Assembly: GCA_964016885.1 (NCBI GenBank)
Contig: OZ024742.1
Coordinates: 317,192,001 to 317,256,000 of the forward strand
Length of the DNA stretch: 64,000 nucleotides
Direction of reading: 5' to 3'
Origin: Eledone cirrhosa
Taxonomy: Eukaryota
The position numbers and the translations under genes were made by a program. Numbering within the stretch: position 1 is the stretch's first letter; the number at the start of each line of letters is the position of its first letter. This document shows positions 16,637-63,383 of this stretch, piece by piece. A model generated the notes under the pieces. The model saw only the letters and a program-made list of their open reading frames with translations, ran no database searches and had not been told where the DNA came from.

Positions 16637-16718
16637 TATTATCATTATGTACACAGATACAAACACATACACGCACAAACATATATATATAAACATTGCT
16701 GTCTCTAATCGAGAAGAG

Positions 16719-21801: not shown

Positions 21802-24800
21802 TATTTCTTTATTTACCATAAAGGCATAAAAAGAAGGGACAAATACAAAGGGGGAGTTTACATAAAACAGAGTAAAAAGGGTATAAAATGAAAATAATCG
21901 AAAACAACCTCAAAAGGGAGGGGACGTGATAGGGGTTGCACACACCCCCGAAAAAGTGTGCAATCCTTTGCCCGGGGAGCATATGGAGAAGGTGCTCCCC
22001 TCTCCTTCACTTCTTTACTCACAGGATGGTATACAGAGAAGGCCCAGTTACACGAGCTATTCTCGCCACTATCACCCACCTTTCATAAAACTGCCTGTGG
22101 CCAAGCACCTCTCTCTCCATTCTTATCCTTCTTCCGAAGTGATATCGGAAGAAGTAGACCAGACTATGGCCAGAGAGGAAGAAGCCTGACCTCAGACCTT
22201 TCAATCGTGTCCACCAAACAACCTCTTTCAACATGGCTATTACGCACAGAAAAACCGCTTTTGCTTCTTTTGTGAAGAGGCGAGGCGGCTTGATTGTCAT
22301 CACGGACTCGGCGGTCAATCGAATCGGCGCCACCCGCAACAGCAGTCGTTCGGCGTAGTCCCACAGATCAGCCACGCCCGGACATTGCACCAATGCGTGC
22401 GCAACGGTTTCTTCGTGACGCACGCATCTAGGGCAAATCTTTTACGGATGATCCCTGCCCGGGCGCCCGTGTCTGTAGAGCCTCTCTCCAACGGGTAGAG
22501 CCCCCCCCCCCCCCCCCGGTAGCACTGCCAGGCTAGTGACTTCTGGAAGTTGTCCATTGGTCCCGGGCCGAAAGTCCTGCCGAACAGGCTGGCCAGTTCG
22601 TCCTCTTCCATGTCCAGCGACTCTCCAAGGGTGTCATCGCTCCTGCTAGCCACCAGCCCTCTATAGAATGATGAGCTGGATTCTCCACCGATGGCCGGGC
22701 CCGCTTGACAGAGAGCCCTGAGCGCCTGGCCACACTCAGTGTGCCAGTCTCCCAGTTTTCCGGATCTTTGCTTGACCCAGGACTGCAGCTCGGTGAGCGA
22801 GACGAGTCTCGGAAAGGCTCGTTTCACGAACGGAGCCCACACCGATTGACCAGTGAGGAATACCTGTAGGTGCCGTAGCCTTAATGCGTGTCTACGCATC
22901 ATCAACCACGGCATCCCCAGCCCTCCTTTCGAAGGTTGTTGGCAGCAGATGGATCTTCTCACCATAGGAGGGTGCTTCTTCCAAAGGAATTGGAAGAGCA
23001 TGCGTTCCATGGCGGTGAGTGTTTCCTTAGGGCAAGGCACGACAGTCAGGCGGTAGTAAGTGACGGACGCTATGTAAATGTTCGCCACCTCCGCCCGACC
23101 TTTTAGGGACAGCTTACAGTTGGCCCATTTCTGGGTTAGTGCAAACACCTTGTTCGTAACCTCGTCCCAGTTGTTTTCCACCTGGAGGTCCGGTCCAAAC
23201 CAGACCCCAAGCAACTTCACCGGGCCCTCTGTCCAGTGTCCGACGACACCGTCGGGAGGCATCGGTCTGCCTCTCCACGTTCCGAGTTGCAGCCCGATGG
23301 ATTTTTCCCGGTTCAGTTTCGCTCCTGACAACCTTTCGTAATCCTCCAGTAAGGTACCGATCGCCTCGATCTCTGAGTCGGTCGATACCATTACTGTTAC
23401 GTCATCGGCGTAGGCCGACACAGCTTTGCTCAATCCTGGTTCCAGGGGGATATCCTGCAACAACTCCAACTTCCTCAGTAAAGGCTCGAGAGTCAATACG
23501 TACAGAAGGGAGGAGAGAGGGCACCCCTGTCGAATGGATCGTGTGATTTCGAACGGCTTCGAAAGGTAGCCGTTCACCTTGATCCTAGAACAGATGTGGT
23601 TGCTATGTAAGGTAGTGATCCAGCCTCTGAAAACAGGACCAAACCCAGCCGCCGCTAGCACCGCATCCAGGTAACCATGGTCGACCCTATGGAATGCCTT
23701 AGATTGATCCAAGTTGATCAGGGCCCCGCCACAGCCGGGTTTGTTGCCAACCCTCTCTATGATGTATCGCATGAGGTGGAGGTTATCGTGAATGGACCTG
23801 GATGGGATAGCACATGTCTGCGCATCTCCCACCAGGCCACCCACGACAAGCGCCAACCTCTTTGCTAACACCTTGGCCAAAATCTTTAACTCTGTGTTTA
23901 GCAGGGTTATGGGCCGAAAATTATTTATACTATCCCTCTTGTTCTCGTCCTTCCTCACCAGCGAAACTACGCCCTTGGCTACAGAACAAGGAATTCTCCC
24001 GTGCTGCTGCCAATTGCAGTAGACCGCTTCGAGGAGTTCGGAGAAGAAGACCGGCATTGCCAAATAAAGTTCGTAAGGTATACCATCGAGACCTGGAGAT
24101 TTGCGTCTGCTGCATTGGCTCAGCGCATCCCCGATCTCATCAGCCGAGATTGATCCCTCGCAGGACTCTGCCTCTTCGCTCGAGAGACGCGGCAGGCCGT
24201 CGAGGTATGGACCGAAATCCACGTCCCCGCCCGGACCCTCGCCTCCCCCGAACAATCGGGCAAAGTGCCTTTGAAAGGCCTCGCACATCTGCTTAGGCTC
24301 CCGGATTACCCGTCCATCCTCGTCTTGCAAAGACCGGATGGTGGATCGATTTCCACTCTTAGCTTCTGTCACGCGGGCCCAGCCAACCGCTTTGGCCCCC
24401 TCATTACCTAGAGCACGTATTTTACTTCGAATGACGCAGCCTTCGTGCTTTGCATCGAAAAACTGGCTCAAGGCCGTCCTCGATGCCAGCACTCTGGCTA
24501 CATCTTCGCTCTTGATTGCCTCTTCTAATTTACCTGTTAATTATTTCTCGTTTCTATTCCTATCGGCAGCTAACATCTTGCTATAACTTATTGATTCTGT
24601 TCTAATCTCTCTTCTGAGAGATGCCCACCATCGGTTGTTGACGATTGCAGCCGTTAACCTCTCCTTAACTAATCTGCTAATCCGGTTTCTGTAAGTCTCT
24701 TTTGCCGGTAAAGACAAATTAAGTTTCCAGTAACCGGGACCCTGTTTATGTGTTTTCTCAAGATTGACTACGCAGGTCACTAATTTGTGATCCGTATAGC

Positions 24801-26084
24801 CAACCGTGAGCATTTCTGGACAGCTTAATATGTCCCTATCCTTACTTCTAACTAAGAATCTATCTAAGTACGTTCTAGATTGACCACTGTGGTCCTTCCA
24901 AGTCCAGGTTGGCACAGTTGGAAAATCTAGTCGATATCTATCGACCAAGTTAAAACGGTCGAGTAACCCCTTGAGGCTGTTACACCCCCCTCTATTAGGA
25001 CATGCTCCTGCATAGTCCCAACGTGCATCTAGGATGTCATTCCAATCCCCCGCTAGAAGCAGGGAACGCGACGTTCCCAGAAAAGTCTCCAGACGCTGGA
25101 AGAAGTCGGGTCGTTCAGCTCCGTAAGGGGAGTAGACGGTGACCAGTCTCAAGGCCGCACCTTCACTACTGTCAACGTCTAGCACCAACAAACGACCCTC
25201 CGGGTCCGAGTGAACAAACTGTACGGCGAGACTCAGGTGTTTTTCCAGCAGTACGACAACCCCACCCCCACCTCCAGGTTGACAGAGAGATGCATGTACC
25301 TTAAAGTCATCGAAGGTAGGGGCCAGCTGCCGCACGACGCTGATCCGAGTCTCACAGATAACCATTACATTTATACCGTGACCTGAGGTCATTTAGAAGC
25401 TTTGCTTGCTTCCAAGTTGAGTCTAGGCCACGTGCATTCAAACATCCTACTCTTAACACATCCATGTGGGCGGCAAAGCCAAAGGAGAGTATAGAGACCT
25501 ACCTTTCTGCTTCCCGGGGTTCGGGTCGCACGACTTCCATGTCGTCGGGGGTGTTGGGTGAAGGGGTGTCTTGTAATGGTGTGGGGTCGTCAGTGTGTGG
25601 TGGGGTTGGGGTGTTTGGAGTTGTGTTGGGGAGGGGAAGAGGAGGGGGAAAGCTTTTTAGTAGGACGCGGTTTATGGGTTTGACAGAGGGTGGTCCTACG
25701 TCCTCCTTAAAATCCTTTTTTAGTTTTTGGTAGAGGTTCATTGGGATCTTTATTAATTTTAAATGTGGGTAGTTTTCTGAAGAAACAAAGTTTACACCTT
25801 CGGTTTGTACCGAAGGGTTATTGTTTATGAGTTCATTTAATTTATTATTGTTTCTGTTGATGTAAGTATAGTGTAAGGTCTTTTTTTCGGATGTTGCGAG
25901 TGTTTCGAAGAGAGGAGGGGTAGGTTTGGTTTTGTTTGTTGCTGGAGGGTGTTTTGTGTTTTGTTGGATTGTGTTGACATTTGGGTAGGGGTTGTTTGGT
26001 CTTGTGTGTTTTGCACATGTTTTCTTTTTTTCCTTTTAATCTATCTGAAGGATTTCGTTTCTTCCTCCGAATTCGTTGGGTTAA
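21801..26084 (-). mobile_element. Tx1/L1-clade LINE copy 1 (ORF1 C-terminus, APE-RT ORF2, frameshifted)
   Basis: GDWN, YLDRF, YTDH, GYWKLN, KSPGLDG, RPITLLN, RQGCPLS, YADD; (GATA)n on both sides. Confidence 0.95.
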
Positions 26085-26983: not shown

Positions 26984-29288
26984 ATTTCTTTATTAGCCAC
27001 AAAGGCACAAAAGAAGGGGACACATACAAATGGGGAGTTTACATACAGGTATGTGAAAATAAAACTATTAATAAAATAACAATTGAAATCCCCAATAGGG
27101 GAGGCGTTACACAGGGGTTGTACACACCCTGAATAAAATGTACAACCCTCATCTCCAGGAGCACCAAGAGTGAGTATTCCCTTCCTCTTTTTGCTCAACC
27201 TACAGGCTTATATAGAGAGAAGGCCCAACCACTCGGGCCATCTTTGCCACATTCACCCACCTTTCATAAAGTTTGCTGGAGTACAGCACCTCTCTCTCCA
27301 TCCTGATTCTTCTTCCAAAATGATATTTGAAAAAACGAATCAGTTGTTCGCCGGAGAGAAAGGTGTCTGACCTCAGCTCTTTTAAACTCGTCCACCATAT
27401 AACCTCTTTCACGATAGCCATAACACATAGGAAAACCGCCTCTCCTTCGTCTTTGAAGGCGGGTGGCGGTTTGATCATGACAATGGACTCAGTGGACAAT
27501 AGTCGTCCTACATAGCCCCACAGGTCGGTAACGCCCGGGCAGTGTACAAATGGGTGCGCAACGGTTTCTTCGTCGCGCACGCATCTCGGACAGATCTTTT
27601 TCGAAGGGTCCCTGCCCGGGCGCCCGTGTCTGTAGGGCTTGTCTCGAACTGGTAGAGCTCCTCGGTAACACTGCCAGGCCAGGGACTTTTGGGAGTTATC
27701 CATCGGTCCCGGGCGGAAGGTCTTACCGAACAGACTGGCCAGTTCGTCCTCCTCTACGACCAGAGTTTCTCCGAGCACATCGTCGTACTTGATGCAGACC
27801 AACACTCTATAGAATGACGAATTGGAGTCTCCACTGATCGCCGGGTCTGTTTGCCAGAGGACTGTGAGCGCCTGAGCACATTCGATGTGCCAGTCACCCA
27901 TTATCCTCGGTCTTTGCTTGACCCAGGATTGCATCTCGGTCAGCGAGACGAGTCGTGGGAAGGCTCGACTCACGAACGGGGCCCACACCGGTTGTCCGGT
28001 GAGGAATACGTGGAGGTGCCGCAGGCTGAGCGCGTCTTTGCGCATCGTCAGCCACGGCATCCCAAGCCCTCCGTTTGAAGGGTGTTGGCAGCAGATGGAT
28101 CTTCTCACCAAAGGAATTGGAAGAGCGCGCGCTCCATTTTGGTGAGCGTTTTGGCTGAACAAGGCACGACGGTGAAGCGGTATTAGATGACAGACGCTAT
28201 AAAAGTGTTCGCCACCTATGCTCGACCTTTCAAGGATAGTTTGCACTCAGCCCACTTCTGGGTGAGCGCAAACACCTTGGCTGTCACCTCGTTCCAGTTC
28301 TTCTCCACCTGGAGGTCTGGACCAAACCAGACCCCGAGCAGCTTTACCATTCCTTCCGTCCAGCGTCCGACGACGCCATCGGAAGGCATCGGTTTGCCTT
28401 TCCACGTTCCGAGTTGCAAACCGACGGATTTGTCCCGGTTCAGCTTGGCCCCTGTGAACCTTACGCTTTCCTTCAGTAAGGTGCCGACCTCCCACATTTG
28501 CGAGGTGCTCGACACGATTACTTCCAGGAGACCGGAGAACAAGTCCGGCATTGCTACGTAAAATTCTTAGGGTAGACCGTCGAGACCTGGACATTTGAGT
28601 TTGCCGCATTGGCTCAGCGCGACCCCTATCTCAGCGGCCGAAATCGGCTTTCGCAGAACTTCGCCTCGCTGTCCGAGAGTCGCGGCATGCCGTCGAGGTA
28701 TGGACTGAAATCCATAGCCCCTCACGTCGCGCCGCCCTGCCCGAATAGTTAAGGAAAGTGCCGCTGAAAGGTAGCACACATCTGCTTAGGCTCACGTATC
28801 ACGCGTCCGTTTTGGTCATTCAAAGACCGAATCGTGGACTTGTTGCCACTTTTCGCCTCTGTCGCTCGGGCCCAGCTAACAGCTTTGGCTCCCTCGTTTC
28901 CCAGAGCACGTATTTTGCTCCTGACAACGCGGCCTTCGTGCTTTGCGCCGAAGAACTGGTCCAATGCCGTTCTCGTCGCTAGCACGTTGGCTACGTTGCC
29001 ACTCCTAAGTGCCTCTTCTACTTTATCTATCAGTTCCTTTTCGGTCTTATTTCTATCTAACACTAATTCTTTACTAAAACCTATCGAGTCTAATCTGACT
29101 GCCCTCCTGAGAGAGTACCACCATCTGTTGTTGACAATGGTCCCCGTCAAGTGCTGCTTAACTAAAGTGCTAATCCGTCTACTGTAGGCTTTGCATGTCG
29201 GTAACGACAAGTTCAGCTTCCAGTAACCAGGTCCCTGTCTATGGGTTCTATCAAGATTGACAAAGCAGGTCACTAGTTTGTGATCTGA
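26981..29288 (-). mobile_element. Tx1/L1 copy 3 (5'-truncated, RT core deleted near 28520)
   Basis: SDHKLV..GYWKLN through to the 3' end; jumps from PDLFSGLLE to the post-YADD region. Confidence 0.9.
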
Positions 29289-29330
29289 GGTAGATAGATA
29301 AATAGATGAGATAGATAGATAGATAGATAG

Positions 29331-29781
29331 ATATGTTTCTTTTATTTGCCACCAGGGCATCAAAAGTGGGACAAGTACAAAGGGGGGAGTTTACAAAACA
29401 AGGCGTCCTCAATAAGGAGGATGCAATAACAAAATATAAAAATAAAATAAAATATAATAATAGAATTTATAACAAAATCCTCAATAGAGAGGAGGCGCCT
29501 TGGGGGGTCGCACACACCCCCGAAAAAGTGTGCAACCCTTTTCCTCAGGAGCACAGAGAAGGGGTGCTCCATTGGTCTGTCATCTTCCTCACCTATAGTC
29601 TGATGTAGAGTGAAGGCCCATTCACACGGGCCATTCTCGCCACTTTCACCCATCTTTCATAAAAACGGCTGGGGTGCAGCACCTCTCTCTCCATCCTGAT
29701 CCTTCTTCCGAAATGATATCGGAAGAAACGGACCAGTTGTTGGCCAGAGAGAAAGGTGTCTGACCTCAGTCCTTTCAGACG
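29331..29781 (-). mobile_element. Tx1/L1 copy 4 (3' ~450 bp)
   Basis: Near-identical to 51627-52081. Confidence 0.9.
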
Positions 29782-30035
29782 CTATAGATAGATATATTTC
29801 TTTATTAGCCACAGGGGCACAAAAGAAAGGGACAAATACAAAGGGGGAAGTTTACATACAATAAAAACGTGTAAATTGTTATCACAAATGCAATTTAAAA
29901 AGTTAGTCGATTTTCCCCAATAGAGGGAGACAGTTTATATGGGTACCACATACCCCCGAAAAAAAATGTGCAACCCTCATCTCCAGGAGTACGAAGAGTT
30001 TGTACTCCTTTCCTCTCCTCCTCCTTTTCCTCAAC

Positions 30036-33000
30036 CTACAGGCTGATATAGAGAGAAGGCCCATTCACTCGGGCCATTCTCGCCACTTTCACCCACCTTT
30101 CATAAAACTCGCTGAGGTACAGCACCTCTCTCTCCATCCTGATTCTTCTTCCAAAGTGGTATTTGAGAAAAAGAATCAGTTGTTGGCCGGAGAGAAAGGT
30201 GTCTGACCTCAGCCCTTTCAACCTTGTCCACCATACAACCTCTTTCGCCATAGCTATCACACAAAGGAAAACCGCCTCTCCTTCGTTTTTGAAGGAGGGT
30301 GGCGATTTGATCATGACAATGGACTCGGTGGTCAACTGGATTGGTCCCACCCGCGACAATAGTCGTTCTACATAGCCCCACAGGTCAGTGACGCCCGGGC
30401 AGTGTATGAATGCGTGCGCGACGGTTTCTTCGTCTCGCACGCACCTCAGACAGATATTTTTTGCAGGGTCCCTGCCCGGGCGCCCATGTCTGTAGAGCTT
30501 GCCTCGAACTGGTAGAGCTCCTCGGTAGCACTGCCAGGCCAGGGACTTTTGGAAGTTGTCCATCGGTCCCGGGCGAGGTCCTACCGAACAGACTGGCCAG
30601 TTCATCTTCCTCTACGCCTAGAGTTTCACCGAGCGCGTCGTCGCACTTGCTGCGGACCAACCCTCTATAGAATGACGAAGTGGAGTCTCCACTGATCGCC
30701 GGGTCCGCCTGCCAGAGGGCTGTGAGCGCCTGAGCACATTCGATGTGCCAGTCACCCATTTTCCTCGGTCTTTGCTTGACCCAGGACTGCAGCTCGGTCA
30801 GCGAGACGAGTCGTGGGAAGGCTCGCCTCACGAACGGGGCCCAAACCGGTTGTCCGGTGAGGAATACGTAGAGATGCCGCAGCCTGAGCGTGTGTTTGCG
30901 CATCGTCAACCACGGCATCCACAGCCCTCCGTTAGAAGGGTGTTGGCAGCAGATGGATCTTCTCACCAAAGGAGCCCACCTCTTCCAAAGGAATCGGAAG
31001 AGCGCGCGCTCCATTTTGGCGAGCGTTTTGGCTGGACAAGGCACGACGGTCAAGCGGTAGTAGATGGCGGACGCTATAAAAGTGTTCGCCACCTCCGCTC
31101 GACCTTTCAAGGATAGTTTGCACTCGGCCCACTTCTGGATGAGTGCAAACACCTTGGCCGTCACTTCGTTCCAGTTCTTCTCCACCTGGAGGTCCGGACC
31201 AAACCAGACCCCGAGCAGCTTTACCGGTCCTTCCGTCCAGCGTCCGACGACGCCATCGGAAGGCATCGGTTTGCCTCTCCACGATCCGAGTTGCAAACCG
31301 ATGGACTTGTCCCGGTTCAGCTTCGCTCCTGTGAGACTTTCGTATTCCTTCACTAAGGTGCAGACTTCCTCGATTTGCGAGGCGCTCGACACCAATACTG
31401 TCACGTCGTCGGCGTAGGCCAACGCCGCTTTCCGCAGTCCCGGTTCCAGAGGGATGCCCTGCAATAGCTCCAGCTTCCGCATTAGTGGCTCGAGAGTCAG
31501 TACGTACAGAAGGGAGGAGAGAGGGCATCCCTGTCGAATGGATCGCGTAATATGGAACGGCTCCGAGAGGTAGCCGTTCACCTTGACCCTTGAGCAGATG
31601 TTTCTGTTGTGCATTGCAGCAATCCAGCCCCTGAACACGGGTCCGAAGCCTGCCGCCTCGAGCACCGGATCCAGGTAACGATGGTCAACCCTATCGAAAG
31701 CCTTAGACTGATCCAAGTTGATCAGGACCCCACCGAAGCCGGGTTTACACCCTACCCTCTCTATGATGTATCGCATGAGGTGGAGGTTGTCGTGTATGGA
31801 CCTGGTCGGGATTGCGCATGTCTGCGCTTCTCCCACCAGGTTCTCGACGACAAGCGCCAGCCTCTTTGCCAACACCTTGGCCAAAATCTGTAACTCTGTG
31901 TTTAGCAGAGTTATGGGCCGGAAGTTTCCTATGTCATCCCCCTTATTCTCGTCCTTCCTGATTAGTGTGACCACGCCCCCGGTTACAGAACTGGGAATTC
32001 TCCCGTTCTGCTGCCAGTTGCAGTAGACCGCTTCCAGAAGACCGGAGAATAAGTCCGGCATTGCTACGTAAAATTCGTAGGGTAGACCGTCGAGACCTGG
32101 AGATTTGCGTTTGCCGCATTGGCTCAGCGCGTCCCCTATCTCAGTGGCTGAAATCGGCTTTTCGCAGAACTTTGCCTCGCTGTCCGAGAGTCGCGGTAGG
32201 CCGTCGAGGTATGGACCGAAATCCATAGCCTCGCCCGGCGTGCCGCCCTCCCCGAACAGCTGAGCAAAGTGAAAAGCCGCACACATCTGCTTCGGCTCAA
32301 GTATCACGCGTCCGTTTTGGTCCTTCAAAGACCGAATCGTGGACTTGTTGCCACTTTTTGCCTCTGTCACTCGGGCCCAGCTAACAGCTTTGGCTCCCTC
32401 GTTTCCCAGAGCACGTATTTTTCTTCTGACAACGCAGCCCTCGTCCTTTGCGTCAAAGAACTGGTCCAAGGCCGTTCTCGTTGCTAGCACGCTGGCTACG
32501 TTGCCACTTCTAATTGCCTCTTCTACTTTATCTACCAGTTCCTTCTCGGTTCTATTTCTATCTAACGCTAATTCTTTACGAAAAACTATCGAGTCTAATC
32601 TAACTGCCCTCTTGAGAGAGTACCACCATCTGTTGTTGACAATTGCCCCTGTCAAGTGCTGTTTAACTAATGTGCTAATCCGTCTACTGTAGGCTTTGCT
32701 TGTCGGTAACGACAAGTTCAGCTTCCAGTAGCCGGGTCCTTGTCTATAGGTTCTATCAAGGTTGGCCATGCAGGTCACTAGTTTTATGATCTGAATAGGC
32801 AACCATGAACATTTGTGGACAGCTTAACATGTCACTATCCTTATTTCTAACTAGAACCCTATCTAGGTACGATCTAGATGTTCCGCTACGATTACTCCAC
32901 GTCCACAGTGGCGCAGTCGGAAAATCTAGTCGATATCTATCGGCCAGGTCAAATCGGTCGATTAACTGTTTCAGGCTGTTACACCCCCCTTTATCGGGAC

Positions 33001-33499: not shown

Positions 33500-35413
33500 C
33501 ACTCACCCTTCGCCTCCTGGGGAGCAGGCCGCACGATTTCCATGGGGGTGTTGGAGGGGTTGTCTGGATGGGTGGTGGTTTCCGGCGGGGTGGGGACGCA
33601 GATGTTTGGTGGGGTGGGGTCTGGTGGGATGGGGGTGTCTGGGGTGGAGACATTTGAGAAGGACGCGGTTGAGTGGTTTCACTCAGGAATTCCCCACATC
33701 CTTCTCAAATGTTTCTTTTAGGGACCTATAAGTTTGTATAGGGACCCTAATCAGTTTTAGGTTCAGTTTTTTGCTATTTTTAATAGAGTGGGCGAAAGTT
33801 TTCCCTTCGGTTTTCACCGAAGGGTCGTTCGTGATGGTCTCCATTAGTGTTTTGTTTTCAGTGTTTATGTAAGTGTAAGTGTAATTTTCTTGTGTTGCGT
33901 TTGTTTTTGTCTGTAGTTCTTGTGTGTGCTTTCGTTTTGTTGTAGGTATTTTGTTTTCAGGAGGTGGGGGTTTTGTTTATGATGTTTTTGTTGTTTGTGT
34001 TGGTGGTTGTATGTTTGTGGTAGTGTTTGCTGGTTTTTTGCTTTTGTGATGTCTTTTCTTTCTTTTCGATCGATGGGGTTCTCCCTCGTCTTCACTGGGT
34101 GATGGCGAGATAGCCTCATCTGTTGTATCGTCTGTGTGATTGGGGAGGGGTATGTCTTGGGGAGCTGTTGTGTCTGTATGTGATTTTGCAGTGGTTTTAG
34201 GTGGAGTGGGGTTGGGTGGGACTGTGTTTGTTGTGGTTATTTTTGTGTGTTCGTGTTGTTGTTGTTGTGGTGGTGTTGGTGGTTGTGTTGTTTTGATGGG
34301 TGTCGGCAGAAGAGCCTTTTTTTGGTTCATTAATTTAGGACAGGAAGCCCTCGGGTGACCCCTGCTAAAGCAATGGTAACATGAAGGCCGCCTACCCTCA
34401 ACCGAAAAGTTTATGTAGGTGAGTCCGTCCAGGAGTACACGCTGTGGGATCATAGCTATTCGCTCTGGGCTCATTTGCACCAGAACTTCAATGCTAGTCC
34501 CATTGAATACATCTCTGGGGGACTTTCCTACTGACAGTATTCTGTCTTCATCAAAATTGATGATGCCGCACAGTATCCACCATATGTTCACCTTTGGTGT
34601 GACACTTGTGATTCTGATCTTTTGTGTCCTTTTTCCCATGTATGTAGGGAAAAAGGTGTACAGGTTGGATACAATTGGCGACACAGAGTAATTTTGGGCC
34701 GTCAATTCATCCTTCATGAGTACCGAAATACTCCCAAAAAGTTTGCTTCTTTGAATGAATGCAATATCATTCATTGAATTTTTGAAAACCAGTACAATTT
34801 CTCTCTGTGACTATTGGACTGGTTTTCGGGTAGAATTGGAAACTGTCCTAAAAACTATCGTTTTGAGAGCAGTTTCCTTGCGAATTTCTACCGGAGAATT
34901 GATGCTGAAAGCACCATTTTTTTCGAAAGTGACATATCTCTTAGCGTCCTTTAAAAGTTGTTCAGGATTTGTTATGTCGAGATATATCAATTCTTCCTTC
35001 TTTTGAACTTTCTCTGCAAAGGAGATTTTTGGTTTCTTTGTGGAATCCGTATTGGTGGTGTTGTCATTATTGTTGTTATTGTTGTTGTTATTCTTGTTGT
35101 CACCGATGTTGGTATTATCCGTATTTTCCTTGGTGTTGTTGTTGTCTTTGATGCTGGTGTTATTGGTGTTGTCTTTATTTTTTTCTTTGTTGTTGTTATC
35201 ATAGTTGCTTTTATCATCATTATTGGTGTTGCTGTTATTTTTGTTGTCATTGAATTGTTTGGTGTCATTTGTGTTGTTTGAATATGAATTCGTTTTTACA
35301 TTTTCATTTTGTCTTTCCATCTCTATAGTATCTAGTGAAGAAAACGTTGTTGACTGCGAGCTTTGTAGTCTTACCGCCTCTCCACCACCATTATCGTTGG
35401 ACGCAGCGTTCAT
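33500..35413 (-). pseudogene. Tx1 ORF1 (gag-like zinc knuckle)
   Basis: ORFs 34811..35413 and 33977..34774 are in frame across one TAG; CYHCFSRGHPRASC fits CX2CX4HX4C; C-terminus matches copies 1 and 6. Confidence 0.85.
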
Positions 35414-36036
35414 AACGTAATCAAAATTTTACAATATTTTTTCCAAGATTCGATGGAGAAAAATTTGTTAAATGGATATTCCGCCCCTGTAGGGGCATAA
35501 ATGAGTTGACCCACCACCTGAAGGTTCAGACGGGTGGCCAAGTTACACAATGATATAAAATTTAACTAAAAACTCACGTTTTTTTCTTACATAAATTAAC
35601 GGAAACTTCTCCGCGAAGTTACACACGTCTGATAGAGAGATAGATAGATAGATAGATAAGTAGACATATAAATAAATAAATGTGTTTTTGTCCGAAGAGA
35701 GCTCCTCGGTTGACAATTGACCACCTTGTCAGCAATGCTACAAATCAGAGAAATATGTAGGAAGATATCAAATTTCCATTTTCCAACAAATGTAGTACAA
35801 AGCGGTTGCAATGGGACTTTTGTGTTTTATTTATATAGATGACCAATAACGGTATTTTCAGAAAAGAATGTATTTGTGGTGACAATACATTATATATTAT
35901 ATCTATATTTCTGCCCTCACTAACAGTTGAATATGTCTCCGAACATACAAGCAAAATTTATTCTTTTGTATTCGTCCTTCTATTTAACTTCTATCTTCTC
36001 CTTTTCAATAACTTTCTCTTAGTCATTCGTCTGCCT

Positions 36037-44917: not shown

Positions 44918-45111
44918 TAACAAAGGAATTGTGGTAAGGAACCAGATGGACCATAACGCACCAGATTAGTCAATACTTAGGGTAGTAGAGTAGGAAATAG
45001 GAAAAAGTATGACCCCGACGGCAGAGCTCAAGCCGTTTCGACGGCTATTTCTGGACGCAGAAATATCCATCGAAACGGCTTGAGCTCTGCCGTCGGGGTC
45101 ATACGTTTTCC

Positions 45112-45114
<3 letters not shown>
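44918..45114. mobile_element. Family A element as a fold-back (arms 44997-45053, 45058-45114; 4-nt loop)
   Basis: Carries the 3' half of an HHR (GTC-GAAA-CGGC..GCCG-TC); (TA)n on both sides. Confidence 0.85.
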
Positions 45115-45201: not shown

Positions 45202-45325
45202 AGCTATCGAAACGGCCGGAGCTCAGTCGTCGTGTTCCTGACTTTTTTCCTATTACTCACTCTACTACCCTAAGTATCGAGTACTCTGGTGCGTTGTGGT
45301 CCAACTGGTATCTTACCACACCTTT
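45202..45325 (+). mobile_element. Family A element, single arm
   Basis: cgaaacggccggagctcag...ctctactaccctaagtatcgagtac. Confidence 0.8.
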
Positions 45326-49026: not shown

Positions 49027-49029
<3 letters not shown>

Positions 49030-49155
49030 CGAAGGGAGTGTAGTAAGGAACCAGGTGGACCATAACGCACCACAATACTCGATACTGGGTAGTAGAGTGG
49101 GTAATAGGAAAAGAGTCAGGACCCCACAGCTAAGCTCCGGCCGTTTCGACAGCTA
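49027..49155 (-). mobile_element. Family A element, single arm
   Basis: Homologous to 44918-45050; ends in (TA)n. Confidence 0.8.
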
Positions 49156-49964
49156 GGTCTGAACTAGGTCAAACTTTGCTCTGTGTGTGTGTGTGTGCAT
49201 GTGTGTGTTTGTATATATATATATGTGTGTGCGTGCGTGTGTGTGTGAGTCGCTACACAAGCATGACAATTTCTACTGCTAGCTGAGTCAAAGAAATTGT
49301 ATGCTCAGGGCAACAAAGGTAGAGATTCACCGATATATTGAATTATAATTTAACTGATGCTTGTCATCAATGTGCATTAGTGTAAATCATTACTGAATAG
49401 TTGACATAAAAAGAAATATTCATTTATAACTGGGCCAAACCTTCCATATACCCCGTACCAAATGTGTATGTAGAACGCAGCGAGCGTAAAACGAAAACTA
49501 GAGCATTTTTACTAACACGAGACGAAAAATAATGGTTTGTGAATGAATATACGTATTTGCCTACATACACACATTATGGTCCACAAATGTCAATTCTTAT
49601 TTTTTACTTTATCTTTAACAGAGAGAAATTCCCTCAAAAATCTATCCCTATATGAAATCATGGTAGAGAAATATATATGTATATATAAGCGAGTTTAGAT
49701 AGAATACTTTTTCCATAATTAGAGTTTTTTTCTCACTTAATTTTAATATATAGTATTGCTTCTCTGAGAAATTCCTTTCATTGAGATGTTTAAGTATTAG
49801 AGACTAGTTGACCTTTTAATTAATATTAAACTGCTCCTTAATTTGTCACATTTCGGTCTTTACCACATCAATCTGCAGTACATTTGTAGAGGCTTTATTG
49901 AAACTTAGTATGTAACTTGTACGTGTTATATTGCATATTGCAATAAAGGGAAGTAAATTTGTTG

Positions 49965-51891: not shown

Positions 51892-54800
51892 CTATAGTCT
51901 GATGTAGAGTGAAGGCCCATTCACACGGGCCATTCTCGCCACTTTCACCCATCTTTCATAGAAACGGCTGGGGTGCAGCACCTCTCTCTCCATCCTGATC
52001 CTTCTTCCGAAATGATATCGGAAGAAACGGACCAGTTGTTGGCCAGAGAGAAAGGTGCCTGACCTCAGTCCTTTCAGACGCGTCCACCATACAACCTCTT
52101 TCGCCATGGCTATTACGCACAGAAACACCGCCTCTGCTTCATCTTTGAAGGGGGGAGGCGGCTTGATCATTACAATAGACTCGGTGGTCAACCGGATCGG
52201 TCCCACCCTTGACAGCAGTTGTTCGACATAGCCCCACAGATCGGCTACGCCCGAGCAGTGTACCAATGCGTGTGCAACGGTTTCCTCGTCGCACACGCAT
52301 CTGGGACAGATCTTTTTGGCGGGGTCCCTACCCGGGCGCCCGTGTCTGTAGAGCCTTTCTCGAACGGGTAAAGCCCCTCGGTAGCACTGCCAGGCCAGGG
52401 ACTTCTGGAAGTTGTCCATAGGTCCTGGGCTGAATGTCCTACCGAACAGGCTGGCCAGTTCGTCCTCCTCCATGTCTAGGGCTTCTCCGAGGGCGTCGTC
52501 GCACCTGCTGCGTACCAGCCCTCTATAGAATGTTGCGGTGGAGTCTCCACTGATAACCGGATCCGCCTGCCAGAGGGCGGTGAGCGCCTGGGCACACTCA
52601 GTGTGCCAGGCGCCCAGTTTTCTCGGTCTTTGCTTGACCCAGGATTGCAGCTCGGTGAGTGAGACGAGTCTGGGAAAGGTTCGTCTCACAAACGAGGCCC
52701 ACACCGGTTGTCCGGTGAGGAATACGTAGAGGTGCCGTAGCCTTAATGCGTGTTTACGCATCATTAGCCACGGCATCCCCAGCCCTCCTTTCGAAGGGTG
52801 TTGACAGCAGATGGATCTCCTCACCATAGGAGACCGCCTCTTCCAAAGGAATTGGAAGAGCGCGCGCTCCATCTTGGTGAGGGTTTCCCTTGGGCAGGGC
52901 ACTACGGTCAGGCGGTAGTAGATGACGGACGCTATGTAGGTGTTCGCCACTTCCGCCCGACCTTTCAGGGATAGTTTGCAACTGGCCCACTTCTGGGTCA
53001 GTGCAAACACCTTGTTCGTAACCTCCGCCCAGTTTTTCTACACCTGGAGGTCCGGTCCGAACCAGACCCCGAGCAACTTCACCGGGCCCTCCGTCCAGCG
53101 TCCGACGACGCTATCGGAGGGCATCGGTCTGCCCCTCCACGTGCCGAGTTGCAAACCGATCGACTTGTCCCGGTTCAGCTTAGCCCCTGTGAACCTTTCG
53201 TACTCCTCCAGTAAGGTGCCGACCGCCTCGATTTCGGAGGCCGTCGACACCATTACTGTCACGTCATCGGCGTAGGCCGACACCGCTTTCCGCAATCCCG
53301 GTTCCAAGGGGATGCCCTGCAACAACTCCAACTTCCGCAGTAGTGGCTCGAGAGTCAACACATACAGAAGGGAGGAGAGAGGGCACCCTTGTCGGATGGA
53401 CCGCGCGATTTGGAACGGCTCCGAGAGGTAGCCGTTCACCTTGACCCTAGAGCAGATGCGGCTGCTGTGCATAGCAGTGATCCAGCCCCTGAAAACGGGT
53501 CCGAAGCCTGCTGCCGCTAGTACCGCATCCAGGTAACCATGGTCGACCCTATCGAACGCCTTAGATTGATCCAAGTTGATCAGAGCCCCACCAAAGCCGG
53601 GGTCGTTCCCAACCCTCTCTATGATGTATCGCATGAGGTGGAGGTTGTCATGGATGGACCTGGACGGGATAGCGCATGTCTGCGCATCTCCCACCAGGTT
53701 GCCCACGACAAGCGCCAACCTCTTTGCTAGCACCTTGGCCAAAATCTGTAACTCTGTATTTAGCAGTGTTATGGGCCTGAAGTTACTTATTTCGTCCCCC
53801 TTGTTCTCGTCCTTCCTCACTAGCGTGACTACGCCCTTGGTCACAGTACAGGGAATTCTCCCGTTCTGTTGCCAGTTGCAGTAGACCGCCTCGAGGAGAT
53901 CGGGGAACAAGTCCGGCATAGCTAGATATAATTCGTAAGGAAGACCATCGAGACCCGGGGATTTGCGTTTGCCGCATTGGCTCAGCACGTCCTCTATCTC
54001 AGCGGCCGAAATCGGCTCCTCGCAGGACTTCGCCTCCCTGTCCGAGAGGCGCGGCAGGCCGTCGAGGTATGGACCGAAGTCCACGTTCCCAACCGGCTCC
54101 CCGCCCCTCCCGAACAGTCGGGCAAAGTGCCTTTGAAAGGCCTCACACATCTGCTTAGGCTCAAGAATCGCCCGTCCATCCAGGTCTCGCAAAGACCGGA
54201 TGGTGGATTTAGTTCCACTGTTGGCCTCTGTCACGCGGGCCCAGCTAACAGCTTTGGTCCCCTCGTTCCCTAGAGCACGTATTTTACTTCGGACAACGCA
54301 GCCTTCGTGCTTCGCGTCGAAAAACTGGCTCAAAGCCGTTCTCGACGCTAGCACTCTGGCCACGTCGCCGCTTCTAATTGCCTCTTCTACTCTATCTATT
54401 AGCTCCCTTTCCTTCCTATTCCTATCCGCAGCTAGAACCTTACTAAATTCTATCGAGACTACTCTAATCTCTCTCTTTAGAGATACCCACCACCTGCTGT
54501 TGACGATCGCTCCAGTCAACCGTTCCTTAACTAACGTACTAATCCGATTCCTGTAGGCTCTACTTGCCGGCAAGGACAAGTTGAGCTTCCAGTAACCGGG
54601 GCCCTGTCTATGAGTTCTGTCAAGGTTGACCATGCAGGTCACTAATTTGTGGTCTGAATAGCCAACCATGCGCATTTTTGGACAACTTAAAAAGTCCTTA
54701 TCCTTAATTCTAACTAAGAACCTATCTAGGTACGACCTAGATGATCCGCTACGATTTGCCCAAGTCCAGGTTGGCGCAGTCGGAAAATCTAGTCGATATC

Positions 54801-55329
54801 TATCGGCCAGGTCAAATCGACCGATTAACCCTTTGAGGCTATTACACCCCTCTCTATCGGGGCAGGCCCCTACGTAGTCCCAGCGTGCATCTAGGATACC
54901 ATTCCAGTCCCCCACTAATAGCAAGGAGCGGGACGTCCCCAGAAAAGTCTCCAGACGATGGAAGAAGTCCGGCCGCATTGACCCGAAAGGGCCGTAGGCG
55001 GCTACCAACCTAAACGCTCCGCCTTTACCACTGCCAAGGTCCAGAACCACTAGTCGACCCTCCGGGTCCAAATGTACCATCTGTGTTGCGAGACCCAGAT
55101 GTTTTTGCAGCAGAACGACAACTCCACCCCCACCTCCGGGCTGACAGAGAGATGCGTGCATCTCAAAGTCATCAAAGGTGGGGGCCAGCTGTCGCACGTT
55201 GCTGATCCGGGCCTCGCAAATAACCATCACATCTATACGTTGTGACCTGAGGTCATTTAGAAGCATTGCTTGCTTCCAAGTTGAGCCCAGGCCACGCGCA
55301 TTTAAACAGCCTACTCTTAGCATAGCCAT
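51892..55329 (-). pseudogene. Tx1 ORF2 APE-RT, interrupted by one in-frame TAG at 53038-53040
   Basis: VGCLNARGL, GDWN, SYLDRF, YSDH, LDQSKAFDRVDH, RQGCPLS, YADD, CPRC..EETVAHALVHC. Confidence 0.95.
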
Positions 55330-55353
55330 GTTGGTGGTGAAGAGAAAAGGCAC

Positions 55354-56553
55354 TTACCTCTCTGCGTCCCGGGTATCGGGCTGCACAATTTCCATTAGGG
55401 TGGGGGATGGGTTGTTGGGTGGGGTGGTGGTTTGTGGAAGTGTGGGGGCATCAGTGTGTTGTGTGGTTGGGGAGCTTGGAGTTGTGTGGGTGTTTGGGGA
55501 GGGGGTGGGATAGTTTTTTAGGAGGACGCGGTTAATGGGCCCGACGCAGGGGGGACCCACGTCCTCTTTAAAATTGTTTTTTAAAGTTTTATAGGTGTCC
55601 TGTGGAGCCTTAATCATTTTGAGGTGGGGGAAATCCCCTGCCTGGGTGAAGTTAGGCCCTTGTGTTTTTATTAGATTGTTGTTGTACACAATATTTAACA
55701 GTTTTTTGTTTCTTGTATTTATGTATGTGTATGCATGTTTTTGTTTTTGTGTGGTGTTTTTTGTTTGCTGTTGTGAGCTCTTTTGTGTTGGTGTCAGTGT
55801 TATGTTTTGGGGAGGGTTTTTTTTCATTTGTGTGTCTGAGGTGTGTTTTCTTTTTTTTCTTTTGATTGTGTGGAAGTGCTCCTCCTCGTCTGACGACGAA
55901 CTAGGGTCATCTTCCGCGTTGGAAGGGAGGGGTATATTTTCGGGTTGTGTTTGCGGTACGGGTGTTTTGGAAATTGTTTTTGTTTTTTGAGTGGAGGGGA
56001 TGGGTTGGACATTGTTTTGTTTTGGTTTGAGCTGTGGTGGTTGTTTTTGTAGTGGTAGTTGTGGTGATTGTGTTGGTTGTGCAGTTGTTGGTGGTGTAGG
56101 CAGGATTGGGGTTTTCTTATTAAGTTGGGGACAGACAGCCCTCAGGTGACCTCTGGTTCCGCAGAGGTAACACGAGGGCCGTCTACCCTCAACGGTAATG
56201 TTGATGAAGGTTAGATCATCCAGTATGACGCGTTCAGGGATCTGGGCGATCCTTTCGGGCCTCATTTGAACTACAAGTTCGAGGCTCGTTCCACTGAACG
56301 CGTCACCCGATGCCTTTCCCATGGACACCAGCATGTCATCCTCCAGGTCCAGAAAACCTGTCAAAACCCACCATATGTCTATAATCGGCAGGATGGTGTG
56401 GATTTTTATTTTTTGTGTTCTTCTACCCATGTACGTAGGGTAGAAGGTGTATGCGGTGGATGTGATTGGTTTGATGGACAGTTTCACTGCTGTGTCCCTG
56501 TCCTTCATGAGAATGGATAGACTCCCGTAGAGTCTATCCTTCTGAATGAAGGT
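55354..56553 (-). pseudogene. Tx1 ORF1, 5'-truncated
   Basis: Zinc knuckle CYLCGTRGHLRAVC; the track ORF upstream of 56553 is microsatellite read-through. Confidence 0.85.
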
Positions 56554-56554
56554 G

Positions 56555-56593
<39 letters not shown>

Positions 56594-56631
56594 GTAGGTA
56601 GATAGATACATAGATAAATAGGTAGGTAGGT

Positions 56632-56672
56632 ATGTTTCTTTATTAGCCACAGAGGCACAAAAGAAGGGGTGG
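56632..56672 (-). mobile_element. Tx1/L1 ~40-bp 3' stub
   Basis: tttctttattagccacagaggcacaaaagaagggg inside (GATA)n. Confidence 0.75.
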
Positions 56673-57476
56673 TAGATAAATAGATAGGTAGGCAGCTAGA
56701 TAGATAGATAGACAGATAGATAGATAAATAGAAAGATAGATAGAGAAAGAGAGATAGAAAGAGAGTGTGTGAGAGAGACAGATGGGGGGGTGAGAGAGAG
56801 GGAGAGAGAAAGAGAGAGATTCGCTGCCGAATTACTGAGATGTAACTTTGAAAACATTGTGGAGAGTGTGTCCATGCATTTTTTAAAGACAAATTCCATT
56901 TGGTATTCATGCCATCTACTCAGGAACAAATAGCCCTAACCGCACATGAGCAAATATCCTGAACCTAAAAAAATGTGATAATGTACACATCAACACAGTT
57001 CACTAACAGAAAGCAACCTAAAAAATAAAAATAATAATTTATAAATAATAGTTTCGAAATATTCATTAAATTTAGCACAAAATGACATAAACGAATAAAC
57101 ACAGAAAAGAAAAGTATCTCTTCCTACTAAAGAATGCAAGGCATGGTCAAACCACTTCAAAAGAAGAACGTACATATCGTCTTTGTCATGTTTGAAAATT
57201 AAAACACAGGCCAAAATAGACATAAGTGGCGAGGTATACATCCACAGATACATTAATGAAGACGGGAAAGATATATATATAGAAGACCCTGAAAGGGCTA
57301 GCACCAAACCTTGGCATTGAGAGGTACACAATCCAAAGAGCATTTCGTAATTCTAAAAAACTCACGTTTCACATTCAGAATAAGGACAAGTTACTGCAAT
57401 AGCTTAGGGCTCAATAGACCTCCAGCTATCTAATATGTTGCCAAAACAACTGAGAGGTCTACATATGATTGATGTA

Positions 57477-57644
57477 ACGAAGGAAGTGTGGTAAGGAACC
57501 AGGTGGACCATAAGGCACTAGAGTACTCGATATTATGGGTAGTAGTGTGGGTAATAGGAAAAGAGTCAGGACCCCGACAGCTATTTCTGAAATAGCTGTC
57601 GAAACGGCTGGAGCTCAGCCGTGAGGTCCTTACTCTGTTCCTAT
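57477..57644. mobile_element. Family A fold-back insertion with 13-bp TSD
   Basis: TATGATTGATGTA at 57464-57476 and 57645-57657; centre GACAGCTATTTC-T-GAAATAGCTGTC. Confidence 0.88.
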
Positions 57645-57982
57645 TATGATTGATGTAGATATTTTAGAGAAGCAGTGTGATGTTCTGCTGCGTAACGTGT
57701 ATGATGATCCTATATATATATGTGGAATGAAAGATTGAAGTTTTCAATCCAACATGTTTTTTTCCTTGATTTGAAAATTTGAGATCTCAATCTTAATATA
57801 AACGCTCTGCAACTGATGCGAATGCCAAATGTTGACGGTATTAATCACCATTTTAAATACCAAATAACCCGTTCATGCAAATGCCTTGAGTGCTGAAATT
57901 GTTTCTTCTGTAGTAATTATTTATGCCCATTATCTGAAACACACACACTCACTCACACACACGCATATATATATATATATGT

Positions 57983-58034
<52 letters not shown>

Positions 58035-58062
58035 TTATATATACATATATATATATATATAT

Positions 58063-58686
58063 AAAAGACGTAAATTAAGAAAATTTTAAAAAATTTAAAA
58101 ATTAACTTACTTACTAAAATTTTCACTCTAACTAATTAGTTTCTGCAATGGGATAAAGACAGTTACGTAATCTAACTGTCGAGAATTCATTGCGTCATCA
58201 GGGAGTCTATTCTCAGCTAAGTCTCCAGGCAATGCGCGGACACTGGGGACTCATATAAAAATAATAATAATTCGTTAGATGGAACAGCTAGCGGGGACTG
58301 GATTCCATGCACTGAAAAGCTCGCTGTCACTGGTCAAATGGCAGATTCTAAAGAATCAATCCCGTGACACTGAGGCTAGTCGGTAGGAGTGGGATGGTAA
58401 TATGACAGAAGCCTACTATCACACCAATAAATTAGTAGTGGTTTTGGCAGGTTTGCTCGACAAATAAATAATTTGGAGATAAATATAGAGAATTTAGTAT
58501 ATCTACTAACATATGCGTACAGATGTACGCTAATGCTAGCAAATACAAAGGTTATGTCATAGTACCTAGGTGGTTCAATGCAGGAGGATGCAGAACAATA
58601 ATATAAAAGACGTAAAATAAGAAAATTTTAAAAAATTTAAAAATTAACCTACTTACTAAAATTTTCACTCCAACTAATTAGTTTCT
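58063..58686 (-). mobile_element. PLE pLTR family C, partial tandem
   Basis: 58063-58144 is repeated at 58605-58686; homologous to 3917-4600. Degenerate HHR CTGATGA..A-CAGTTA-gattacg-TAACTG-TC at ~58157-58203. Confidence 0.75.
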
Positions 58687-60050: not shown

Positions 60051-60162
60051 TAACGAAGGAAATGTGGTAAGGAACTAGATGGACCATAACGCACCAAAGT
60101 ACTCAATACTTAGGGTAGTAGAGTGGGTAATAGGAACGAGTAGGGGTCCTACTCGTTCCTAT
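60051..60162. mobile_element. Family A with 15-bp terminal hairpin (60130-60162)
   Basis: ATAGGAACGAGTAGG-ggt-CCTACTCGTTCCTAT. Confidence 0.85.
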
Positions 60163-60427: not shown

Positions 60428-60550
60428 AACAAAGAAATTGTGGTAATAAACCAGGTAGACCATAACGCACCAGAGTAGATACTTAGGGTAGTTTGGATCT
60501 ATTTGTCGAAACGGCCGGAGCTCAGCCGTCGGGGTCCTGACTCTTTTCTT
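60428..60550. mobile_element. Family A, two oppositely oriented segments
   Basis: 60428-60491 is minus and ~60498-60550 is plus; (TA)n flanks. Confidence 0.75.
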
Positions 60551-60582
60551 ATATATATAAATATATATAGAAGTAGTAACCA

Positions 60583-61448
60583 AACAGTTAGTTTACCATA
60601 CCGAGAACAATTGTTTCACCTTATGCGGATCTTCAGCTCGGACTGGTCTTGGTTATACGGAACAGGGAGAACAACCGTATGAACGCCCATGCGCAGAAAC
60701 GGTGACTTCACCCAAGCGATACAAAACCACGGTGAAAGGTGTAAGGGAGATAACTGTGAAAGTCCGGAATAAAATGCTCGAGTTGATTAAAAAATTAGAA
60801 TGTTGTTGTTATTCAATCTGGAGCTTTGTAGTTATTCATGAGGTGTTTCCAGACATGTGGACAACGTGAGAAGATTTCATTTCCTGAATTTAGGCAATCG
60901 CCATTCCGTAATCTCCTTAGAATATTTATCATTTCTTCAATACACAGTCCACAAGACGGATTTCCCCTTGCCTATGGCTTCGACTTAGTGATGGCTTTCC
61001 ATTGAATAGAGTAGTCTATACCTGAGTCTTTGGGGGACCATATGTGGCTCAGGAGCTTCGTGGGTGATCGTTTGTCCAGGTATCTAAAGGTCGACTGATG
61101 GTTCAGAAAGCGTTCCTTAAATCGGCTTGAAGCTTGTCCTCTTCAACAGCAATGCAACAGACCCGTTGTAGTGTATGAAGCTGTGGTCACTTCCAACCGA
61201 CCAAATCAACCACAGGAGGTCAAATCCTATGTGGGTATGGCGGAGGGTTAGGGTTAAGTTAGGGTTATATCTTTCGCAGTTACTCCCCTTACACCTTTCC
61301 CCCGTGGTTTTATATCGCTTGGGGGAAGTGACCGTTTCTGCGCAGGCGCGTTCATACGGTTGCTCTTCTTGTTCTGTATAACCATGACCAGTCCGAGCTG
61401 ATCCGCATAAGGTGAAACAATTGTTCTCAGTATGGTGAACTAACTGTT
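60583..61448 (-). mobile_element. PLE family B: split GIY-YIG between inverted pLTRs (60583-60762, 61271-61448)
   Basis: Minus 61124->60813 reads [42 protein letters not shown]; plus 61135-61248 reads [22 protein letters not shown]. Confidence 0.85.
60601..60641 (-). ncRNA. Minimal hammerhead ribozyme, intact core
   Basis: RC: CCGAG-CTGAAGA-T-CC-gcataa-GG-T-GAAA-CAATTG-TT-CTCGG; the mirror copy at 61393-61430 lacks 3 nt of core. Confidence 0.8.
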
Positions 61449-63158: not shown

Positions 63159-63163
<5 letters not shown>

Positions 63164-63381
63164 AAAAAGTATGACCCCGACGGCAGAGCTCAAGCCGTTT
63201 CGACGGCTATTTCTGGACGACAGTTAGTTTACCATACTGAGAACAGTCCAGAAATAGCCGTCGAAACGGCTTGAGCTCTGCCGTCGGGGTCATACTTTTT
63301 CCTATTTTCCACTCTACTACCCTAAGTATTGAGTACTCTGGTGCGTTATGGTCCATCTGGTTCCTTACCACAATTCCTTTG

Positions 63382-63383
<2 letters not shown>
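63159..63383. mobile_element. Family A fold-back, perfect 60-bp arms (63159-63218, 63246-63305)
   Basis: 27-nt loop derived from family B; (TA)n on both sides. Confidence 0.9.

What the first reader, a model, noticed from the sequence alone, without database searches (positions are those of the whole stretch)
57464..57657. Fold-back unit bounded by a 13-bp target-site duplication
Seen: a 168-bp family A hairpin sits between two exact copies of TATGATTGATGTA in non-microsatellite DNA. Inference: both inverted arms entered in one staggered-cut integration event, which argues against two independent insertions or an assembly artefact.
Basis: partly seen in the sequence, partly recalled or inferred. 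Interest (0 to 1): 0.7.

Follow-up and report, generated by a model that had tools for sequence, protein, structure and literature searches.

The report
Readable integration scar of Penelope retroelement
A real 13-base duplication flanks two cut-short, mirror-image ends of a known kind of jumping gene (a Penelope-like element) that sit inside an older repeat; with ten similar scars elsewhere in the genome it indicates that such pairs most likely arrive together at a DNA cut staggered by about 13-16 bases, likely because both cut ends start copying the element's RNA.

Summary
The exact 13-mer repeat is real and is a true target-site duplication (TSD). The flanks are an older repeat; 23 of 29 paralogous copies carry one 13-nt site in register and none carries two. 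The 168-bp insert is only partly a hairpin: a 77-nt one-sided tail plus two head-to-head, 5'-truncated 3' ends of a Penelope-like retrotransposon (36,958 exact tail ends in the genome). Its coding partner (about 2.9 kb; RT, C-terminal GIY-YIG, CxCx5C linker, U3-A8 hammerhead) has the motifs of the Hydra clade and nearly always lies in (TA)n, where TSDs cannot be read. Eleven exact scars measure 13-16 nt, with TA/AT at both ends that also matches the RNA just past the element's two fixed ends. 43 of 46 pairs have the tail on exactly one arm, and the two arms match each other. Best model: both nicked strands prime reverse transcription, at two sites 77 nt apart. The layout (inverted ends, tail, TSD) is published, and this scan already noted it and the two-primer idea on other DNA of this genome; the TSD length and the empty-site test are what this locus adds. 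Many copies show no legible TSD, and no true empty allele was found.

The parts
57464..57476 (+). TSD, left copy (TATGATTGATGTA); in register with the single 13-nt site of the host repeat
57477..57553 (-). 77-nt tail of the Penelope-like element (sense on the minus strand), present on this arm only; ends at the family's distal fixed 3' end
   Evidence: (55 of 63 measured tails are 77 nt)
57554..57588 (-). tailed arm: 3' end of the pseudo-LTR, 5'-truncated, lacking the 23-nt hammerhead stem III segment (skip between two near-direct GTC repeats)
   Evidence: such a skip seen in 2 of 89 tailed and 0 of 95 tail-less arms
57575..57601 (.). perfect 13-bp palindrome around one T (57588) at the head-to-head junction of the two arms
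57589..57644 (+). tail-less arm: 3' end of the pseudo-LTR, carrying only the 3' half of a type I hammerhead (GAAA at 57601-57604, stem III, cleavage-site C lost); ends at the family's proximal fixed 3' end (CCTAT)
57645..57657 (+). TSD, right copy
57270..57712 (+). host: old dispersed repeat (about 70% identical to its paralogs, with coding remnants) interrupted by the insertion; limits approximate

Best explanation
The unit is a stub insertion of a Penelope-like retrotransposon with Hydra-clade motifs, and its 13-bp flanking repeat is a true target-site duplication, most likely made when the element's endonuclease nicked both strands just after a TA, 13 nt apart, and both freed 3' ends likely primed reverse transcription of the element's RNA. 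Shown: the duplication, the single ancestral site, two fixed 3' ends 77 nt apart, tail on one arm only, arms alike within a unit, arms truncated independently, TA at both primer ends matching the UA that follows each fixed end in the element. Inferred: 3'-overhang geometry; that one end starts at the distal site (giving the tail) and the other at the proximal site; that both copy the same RNA molecule; that the two short cDNAs are joined head to head by end joining (here at most 1 nt of overlap) and the gaps filled. The stub has no coding capacity and only half a ribozyme, so it is predicted to be inert.
For: Empty site by paralogy: 23 of 29 host-repeat copies have exactly 13 nt between the anchors where the window has 194. 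Family TSDs: exact in 9 of 42 fold-backs (this one included; shuffled flanks mean 0.22, max 2 in 2000) and 2 of 19 from the other end (shuffled 0); maximal repeat 13-16 nt (two cases read by eye). Fixed ends: 32 of 38 arms in 394 kb not chosen for the family end at one of two positions. Tail on exactly one arm in 43 of 46 classifiable pairs, binomial p = 2e-10 against 0.5. Arms differ by 1.0 of 20 nt within a unit against 4.7 between units, 37 pairs. Tail-less arm reaches further into the element in 23 of 43 pairs, tailed arm in 9, level in 11. Coding partner contiguous with the same ends. A purified Penelope-like protein cuts and extends both strands, starts at two internal RNA sites that bound the tail, and is predicted to be a dimer (PMC11167929).
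Against: Most copies chosen for a non-TA flank show no legible TSD even with one mismatch (27 of 42; 15 of 19), so 13-16 nt may be only part of the outcome range. 40 of 82 tail-bearing copies in that set had no recognisable arm end or no inverted arm. Two tail-less/tail-less pairs exist (L118, L129). The TA at each end can be assigned to target or element, so the true overhang here lies between 10 and 13 nt by sequence alone. Arm identity would also follow from two RNAs of one source locus or from later homogenisation within the hairpin. No true empty allele was observed.
Confidence: 0.62

Rival explanations
1. Same double nick and double priming, but each DNA end copies a different RNA molecule (two protein-RNA particles or a dimer holding two RNAs).
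For: The two arms copy the same stretch of the element, which on one RNA needs displacement of the first cDNA; arms are truncated independently; a dimer is predicted for a related protein (PMC11167929). An earlier scan note on another genome (e1-9539494, unchecked) reports halves from different parent copies.
Against: With several subfamilies in the genome, the two arms of a unit are of the same subfamily type in nearly all of 37 pairs (mean 1.0 versus 4.7 mismatches); independent choice of start site would give tail/tail and no-tail/no-tail pairs half the time, seen in 3 of 46.
Confidence: 0.2
2. One end primes a single cDNA, which then folds back on itself and copies itself (self-priming), making the inverted arm; the second DNA end only captures the product.
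For: Perfect 13-bp palindrome at the junction; arms alike; self-priming was proposed from such palindromes (PMC3846280, passages); 11 of 43 pairs have arms level within 4 nt.
Against: A fold-back copy cannot hold more than its template: the tail-less arm reaches further than the tailed arm in 23 of 43 pairs, by up to 2.3 kb, and the tailed arm holds a tail the other lacks. Here the tail-less arm keeps stem III, which the tailed arm lacks. A nucleotide-precise stop at CCTAT has no explanation in this model.
Confidence: 0.12
3. A miniature inverted-repeat DNA transposon with a 13-bp TSD.
For: Short, non-coding, inverted repeats, direct flanking repeat, high copy number.
Against: The inverted repeats are not terminal (77-nt overhang), the centre varies from a few bases to about 4 kb, and the same ends run directly into an RT/GIY-YIG reading frame.
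Confidence: 0.02
4. Two independent insertions at one spot, a chance repeat, or an assembly artefact.
For: The family is very dense (38 arms in 394 kb); the short-read contig at the left junction enters the insert by only 22 nt, under the tool's 31-nt standard.
Against: Chance 7e-8; non-TA targets are rare for the family (85 pattern matches against 36,958 tail ends), so two hits at one such site are very unlikely; single ancestral site in paralogs; short-read contigs run from unique flank into the insert on both sides, 48 nt on the right.
Confidence: 0.02

Closest known systems
Hydra clade of C-terminal-endonuclease Penelope-like elements (Craig et al. 2021, PMC8557442; section 11, passages and supplement part 2 read)
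   Same: Under 3 kb, single reading frame, DKT motif, CxCx5C linker, CxxC and CxH around the conserved E and N, hammerhead near the 3' end, insertion in (TA)n, inverted 5'-truncated copy attached (noted there for Penelope-13_HM).
   Different: Hammerhead core is the U3-A8 variant with a long stem II, whereas the Hydra motifs listed in the supplement part read have CTGA-GA cores; RWR in place of RWK; tail 77 nt against the 30-40 nt given for the group; no TSD length is given for Hydra elements in what was read.
Inverted pseudo-LTR plus tail plus TSD insertions of Adineta vaga Penelope elements (Arkhipova et al. 2013, PMC3846280; passages read)
   Same: Inverted ends, tail on one of them, whole unit flanked by a TSD, empty site with one copy, palindromes at the inverted junction.
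   Different: TSD 8-10 bp and tail 31 bp there; 13-16 nt and 77 nt here; self-priming was the proposed mechanism there.
Poseidon element of Anolis carolinensis in vitro (Frangieh et al. 2024, PMC11167929; parts 1-2 of 4 read)
   Same: Two internal start sites bounding the tail; both target strands cut and extended; AT-rich targets.
   Different: That study found priming without homology between cut DNA and RNA and does not give a TSD in the parts read; here 2-7 nt at the tail-side junction match the element's continuation, and the tail lies before the apparent start codon, not inside the reading frame.
LINE-1 twin priming (5' inversions; model recalled, mentioned in passages of 10.1101/2024.12.14.628481)
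   Same: Both ends of a staggered cut prime cDNA, giving an inversion inside one TSD.
   Different: In LINE-1 the second priming site is variable and the two pieces do not overlap (recalled); here both sites are fixed and both pieces copy the same stretch.

Membership tests
Endonuclease-bearing Penelope-like elements | Reverse transcriptase followed by a C-terminal GIY-YIG endonuclease in the autonomous partner | tested here: met
   L122-L125 encode GLYRDDG and VIY...YIG motifs; 315 relatives at E <= 1e-20, one with Pfam RVT_1 above cut-off. Pfam on the partner itself gave only a sub-threshold GIY-YIG hit, E 0.069, and no RT hit.
Endonuclease-bearing Penelope-like elements | Pseudo-LTRs in tandem or inverted arrangement, 5'-truncated inverted copy | tested here: met
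   L122: inverted end with tail, partial direct end, reading frame, final end without tail; pairs.
Endonuclease-bearing Penelope-like elements | Tail extension on one end only | tested here: met
   43 of 46 pairs; length 77 nt, longer than the published 30-40.
Endonuclease-bearing Penelope-like elements | Type I hammerhead motif in the pseudo-LTR | tested here: met
   Stem I, YUGANAA core with N variable, stem II, GAAA, stem III, GUC in long copies; U3-A8 variant known from PMC4209133 (Results read). Rfam did not report a hammerhead. Cleavage not tested.
Endonuclease-bearing Penelope-like elements | The window insert derives from the coding element | tested here: met
   85% identity over 107 nt to the L122 end; closer subfamily copies (L153, L195) continue into sequence 76-78% identical to the L122 coding and 3' region.
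Hydra clade | DKT in place of DKG | tested here: met
   HSDKTG in L122, L123, L125.
Hydra clade | RWK motif near the N terminus | tested here: inconclusive
   RWR in L122 and L123; RWK, RWR or RWT in five relatives.
Hydra clade | CxCx5C linker; CxxC and CxH around conserved E and N; no CCHH | tested here: met
Hydra clade | Length under 3 kb, insertion in (TA)n | tested here: met
   About 2.9 kb unit; TA flanks; 85 matches to a non-TA flank pattern against 36,958 tail ends.
Hydra clade | Phylogenetic placement of the RT inside the clade | not tested
Miniature inverted-repeat DNA transposons | Terminal inverted repeats and fixed internal length | tested here: not met
   77-nt one-sided overhang; unit length 110-4028 nt.
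Non-LTR retrozymes | Tandem repeats each with a complete type I hammerhead (10.64898/2026.07.22.740005, part 1 of 5 read) | tested here: not met
   Head-to-head, not tandem; only the 3' half of the motif is present.

The most novel reading that the evidence does not exclude
Hydra-type Penelope-like elements integrate by an ordered double priming: the endonuclease nicks both strands 3' of TA, 13-16 nt apart; both 3' overhangs pair through their terminal TA with the UA that follows two fixed start sites 77 nt apart on one RNA; one end always takes each site. This single rule would generate the inverted arms, the one-sided tail and the long TSD, and gives the in-vivo cut geometry that the (TA)n targets normally hide.
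Probability: 0.45. Interest if true: 0.6.

Novelty: new member of a known kind. Interest (0 to 1): 0.36.

Why it matters
How Penelope-like elements make their inverted, tailed insertions is described as unresolved in PMC8557442 and only partly addressed in vitro in PMC11167929. Because this family lands almost only in TA repeats, its cut geometry is normally unreadable. The rare copies in other DNA give a number (13-16 nt stagger, TA at both primer ends) that a purified protein can be tested against. The locus itself is an ordinary inert stub of a very abundant retroelement.

Tried and rejected
Empty allele from reads: contigs of X1-X3 (one sample) show no joint skipping the insert; RAD runs X4-X6 do not cover the flanks, so no verdict. 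Rfam found nothing at gathering score in the window and no hammerhead in L122 at E <= 5. A canonical CTGANGA-core pattern (35 matches) caught mostly junctions with other sequence; the real core is U3-A8. The sequence upstream of the arm at window 63231 is unique to that copy (1 match), not family sequence. A three-S flank pattern gave 10 loci, none with a clear TSD on reading. The pattern mostly caught read-through copies, useful only for the element's continuation past the tail. In one search the script paired the window copy with a distant arm (fixed); it missed L244 and picked another copy in L246, so those two rows were read. PDB sequence search with relative P0001: 0 hits. Pfam on the host repeat: 0 hits. 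Folding the tail region of L122 gave no significant structure (z = -0.46), so the twin-hairpin idea of earlier notes was neither confirmed nor properly tested. No look-alike earlier finding by sequence.

Full report
Observation. The 13-mer TATGATTGATGTA lies exactly at 57464-57476 and 57645-57657 and nowhere else in the window at up to one mismatch. The 168 nt between fold strongly (z = -5.4), but the pairing covers only 57554-57644; the first 77 nt have no mirror partner. No tandem array overlaps the site. The chance of such an exact abutting repeat is 7e-8.

The family. The insert has six further matching sites in the window and is very abundant in the genome: 36,958 exact matches to a 21-nt tail-end pattern and 38 arms in 394 kb that were not chosen for the family, which extrapolates to the order of 100,000 insertions. 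The 29 other loci returned (30 of 40 scored candidates, chosen by likeness to this insert) show the same layout, mostly between TA runs, and none carries the 13-mer. The element's sense strand has two fixed 3' ends, at CCTAT and 77 nt further on at CCTTYGT: 32 of 38 arms in the unbiased set and 99 of 121 in loci chosen by internal motifs end exactly there; 55 of 63 measured tails are 77 nt.

The autonomous partner. Walking upstream gave 676 matches to an internal motif, many as inverted pairs 0.4-3.8 kb apart. L122 shows the whole anatomy: inverted end with tail, partial direct end, a reading frame starting MRKHN, about 800 nt of 3' sequence, and a final end without tail; about 2.9 kb. The copies read are broken by frameshifts or deletions. 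The protein has RWR, DKT, GLYRDDG, a CxCx5C linker, a C-terminal GIY-YIG-type domain and CxxC/CxH motifs, the diagnostic list of the Hydra clade in PMC8557442 (section 11). It has 315 relatives at E <= 1e-20 among 3475 longer candidates, none informatively named; Pfam support is weak. The pseudo-LTR holds a type I hammerhead with a U3-A8 core whose seventh position varies between subfamilies, a variant described in PMC4209133; Rfam did not detect it. The window insert belongs to a sister subfamily: 85% identical to the L122 end, closer to L153 and L035, and L153 and L195 continue into sequence 76-78% identical to L122's coding and 3' region. It holds only the 3' half of the ribozyme.

Is the repeat a TSD? 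The left flank matched at least 39 other places at about 70% identity (40 of 242 candidates scored): the insert sits in an older coding repeat whose translation resembles the end of a LINE reading frame (recalled resemblance; Pfam gave no hit). I fetched 29 of those 39 paralogs. Removing the insert and one 13-mer restores collinearity: 23 of 29 have exactly 13 nt between the flanking anchors, three have 5, 11 or 12, three lack an anchor, and none has a doubled site, against 194 nt in the window. A true empty allele was not seen: contigs of one sample run from unique flank into the insert on both sides (22 nt left, below the tool's 31-nt standard; 48 nt right) with no skipping joint, and three RAD runs miss the flanks.

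TSD lengths in the family. A pattern for tail ends followed by non-TA sequence gave 85 matches, 82 distinct copies after fetching all of them. Of these, 19 had no recognisable arm end, 21 no inverted arm, 42 were fold-backs. Exact informative repeats abut both ends in 9 of 42 (this locus included; shuffled pairing mean 0.22, max 2 in 2000), 15 of 42 with one mismatch (mean 0.89, max 5). From the tail-less end, 30 of 34 matches gave 27 distinct copies, 19 with a tailed partner: 2 exact, 4 with one mismatch (shuffled 0 and 0.06). Maximal exact repeats are 13 (1), 14 (3), 15 (3) and 16 (2) nt, plus two of 14 read by eye. The nine scored start with TA at the tail side, matching 2-7 nt of the element's continuation TATYTA, and overlap or abut TA/AT at the other end. 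Against: 27 of 42 and 15 of 19 show no legible TSD; many have a TA run on one side and unrelated sequence on the other, which may reflect repeat-length change, target deletion or later rearrangement, and the patterns used bias the flanks sampled. Shared TA at both ends makes the true overhang here 10-13 nt by sequence alone.

One event, and how. Of 55 head-to-head pairs, 46 had both ends classifiable: 43 tail/no-tail, 2 no-tail/no-tail, 1 tail/tail (p = 2e-10 against 0.5); the tail/tail case is L122, whose outer ends are in fact tail and no-tail. In 37 of the 43 pairs that could be measured, arms differ by 1.0 of 20 nt within a unit against 4.7 between units; 15 are identical against 4.6 expected, though the own arm is best or tied-best in only 23 of 37. 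The tail-less arm reaches further into the element in 23 of 43 pairs, the tailed arm in 9, level in 11, so neither arm is generally a copy of the other. Read from each flank inward, both arms are antisense to the element's RNA and start right after a TA. The simplest reading (inferred) is a staggered double nick leaving 3' overhangs, both ends priming reverse transcription, one at each fixed site, then joining of the two truncated cDNAs and gap filling. PMC11167929 shows both-strand cutting and extension and two start sites in a related element, but reports no homology between primer and RNA. Whether one or two RNA molecules are used is open.

Comparison and novelty. Inverted ends with a one-sided tail inside an 8-10-bp TSD, an empty site and junction palindromes are published for rotifer elements (PMC3846280); the layout is called typical in PMC8557442. 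I found no TSD length for Hydra-clade elements in six literature searches or in the PMC8557442 supplement (one 'TSD' hit, a Naiad; part 2 of 59 read); subscription papers, Repbase reports and bioRxiv supplements were not visible and may hold it. PMC9977147 (passages) notes very short 5'-truncated insertions in microsatellites for another clade. Earlier notes of this scan describe the same layout, clade and two-primer idea on other pieces of this genome; my reading was set before seeing them, and they are not independent evidence. I did not determine the host species.

Verdict. The added value is a clean empty-site test and a measured cut geometry for a family whose usual targets hide it. Interest 0.36.

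Noticed in passing
window 44920-45114, 45202-45321, 49029-49167, 60053-60162, 60429-60552, 63159-63382: Six more stubs of the same family, all beside TA runs; four are complete fold-backs with a one-sided tail. The one at 63159-63382 has about 25 nt of foreign sequence in its centre that resembles window 60583-60606.
   Followed up: partly
window 60583-60650 and L037, L042, L051: Other hairpin families with canonical CTGAAGA hammerhead-like cores lie next to or are joined to this family's arms; likely further Penelope-like families sharing TA targets.
   Followed up: no
window 22315-25392, 27200-32823, 33977-35428, 51892-56919 (minus strand): Several copies of a LINE-like element with endonuclease and reverse-transcriptase reading frames and an upstream CCHC-type frame; long open frames up to 812 aa, head-to-tail and separated by (TAGA)n.
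   Followed up: no
G000:C1:91476610-91487268 (L280-L287): Four read-through tail ends spaced about 3,542 nt apart, suggesting a tandem array of full-length copies of a second subfamily.
   Followed up: no
L157, L208, L220: Tail-bearing copies with little or no inverted arm that still seem flanked by a 10-13 nt direct repeat, suggesting that one primer end sometimes adds little or nothing.
   Followed up: partly
L119, L123-L126, L132, L140: In long fold-backs the tail-less arm is usually much the longer one, a possible sign of an order between the two priming events.
   Followed up: partly
window 58059-58144 and 58601-58686: 86-nt direct repeat, 97% identical, each copy next to a TA run.
   Followed up: no
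window 16259-16642: Two tandem 188-nt copies of a SINE-like unit.
   Followed up: no
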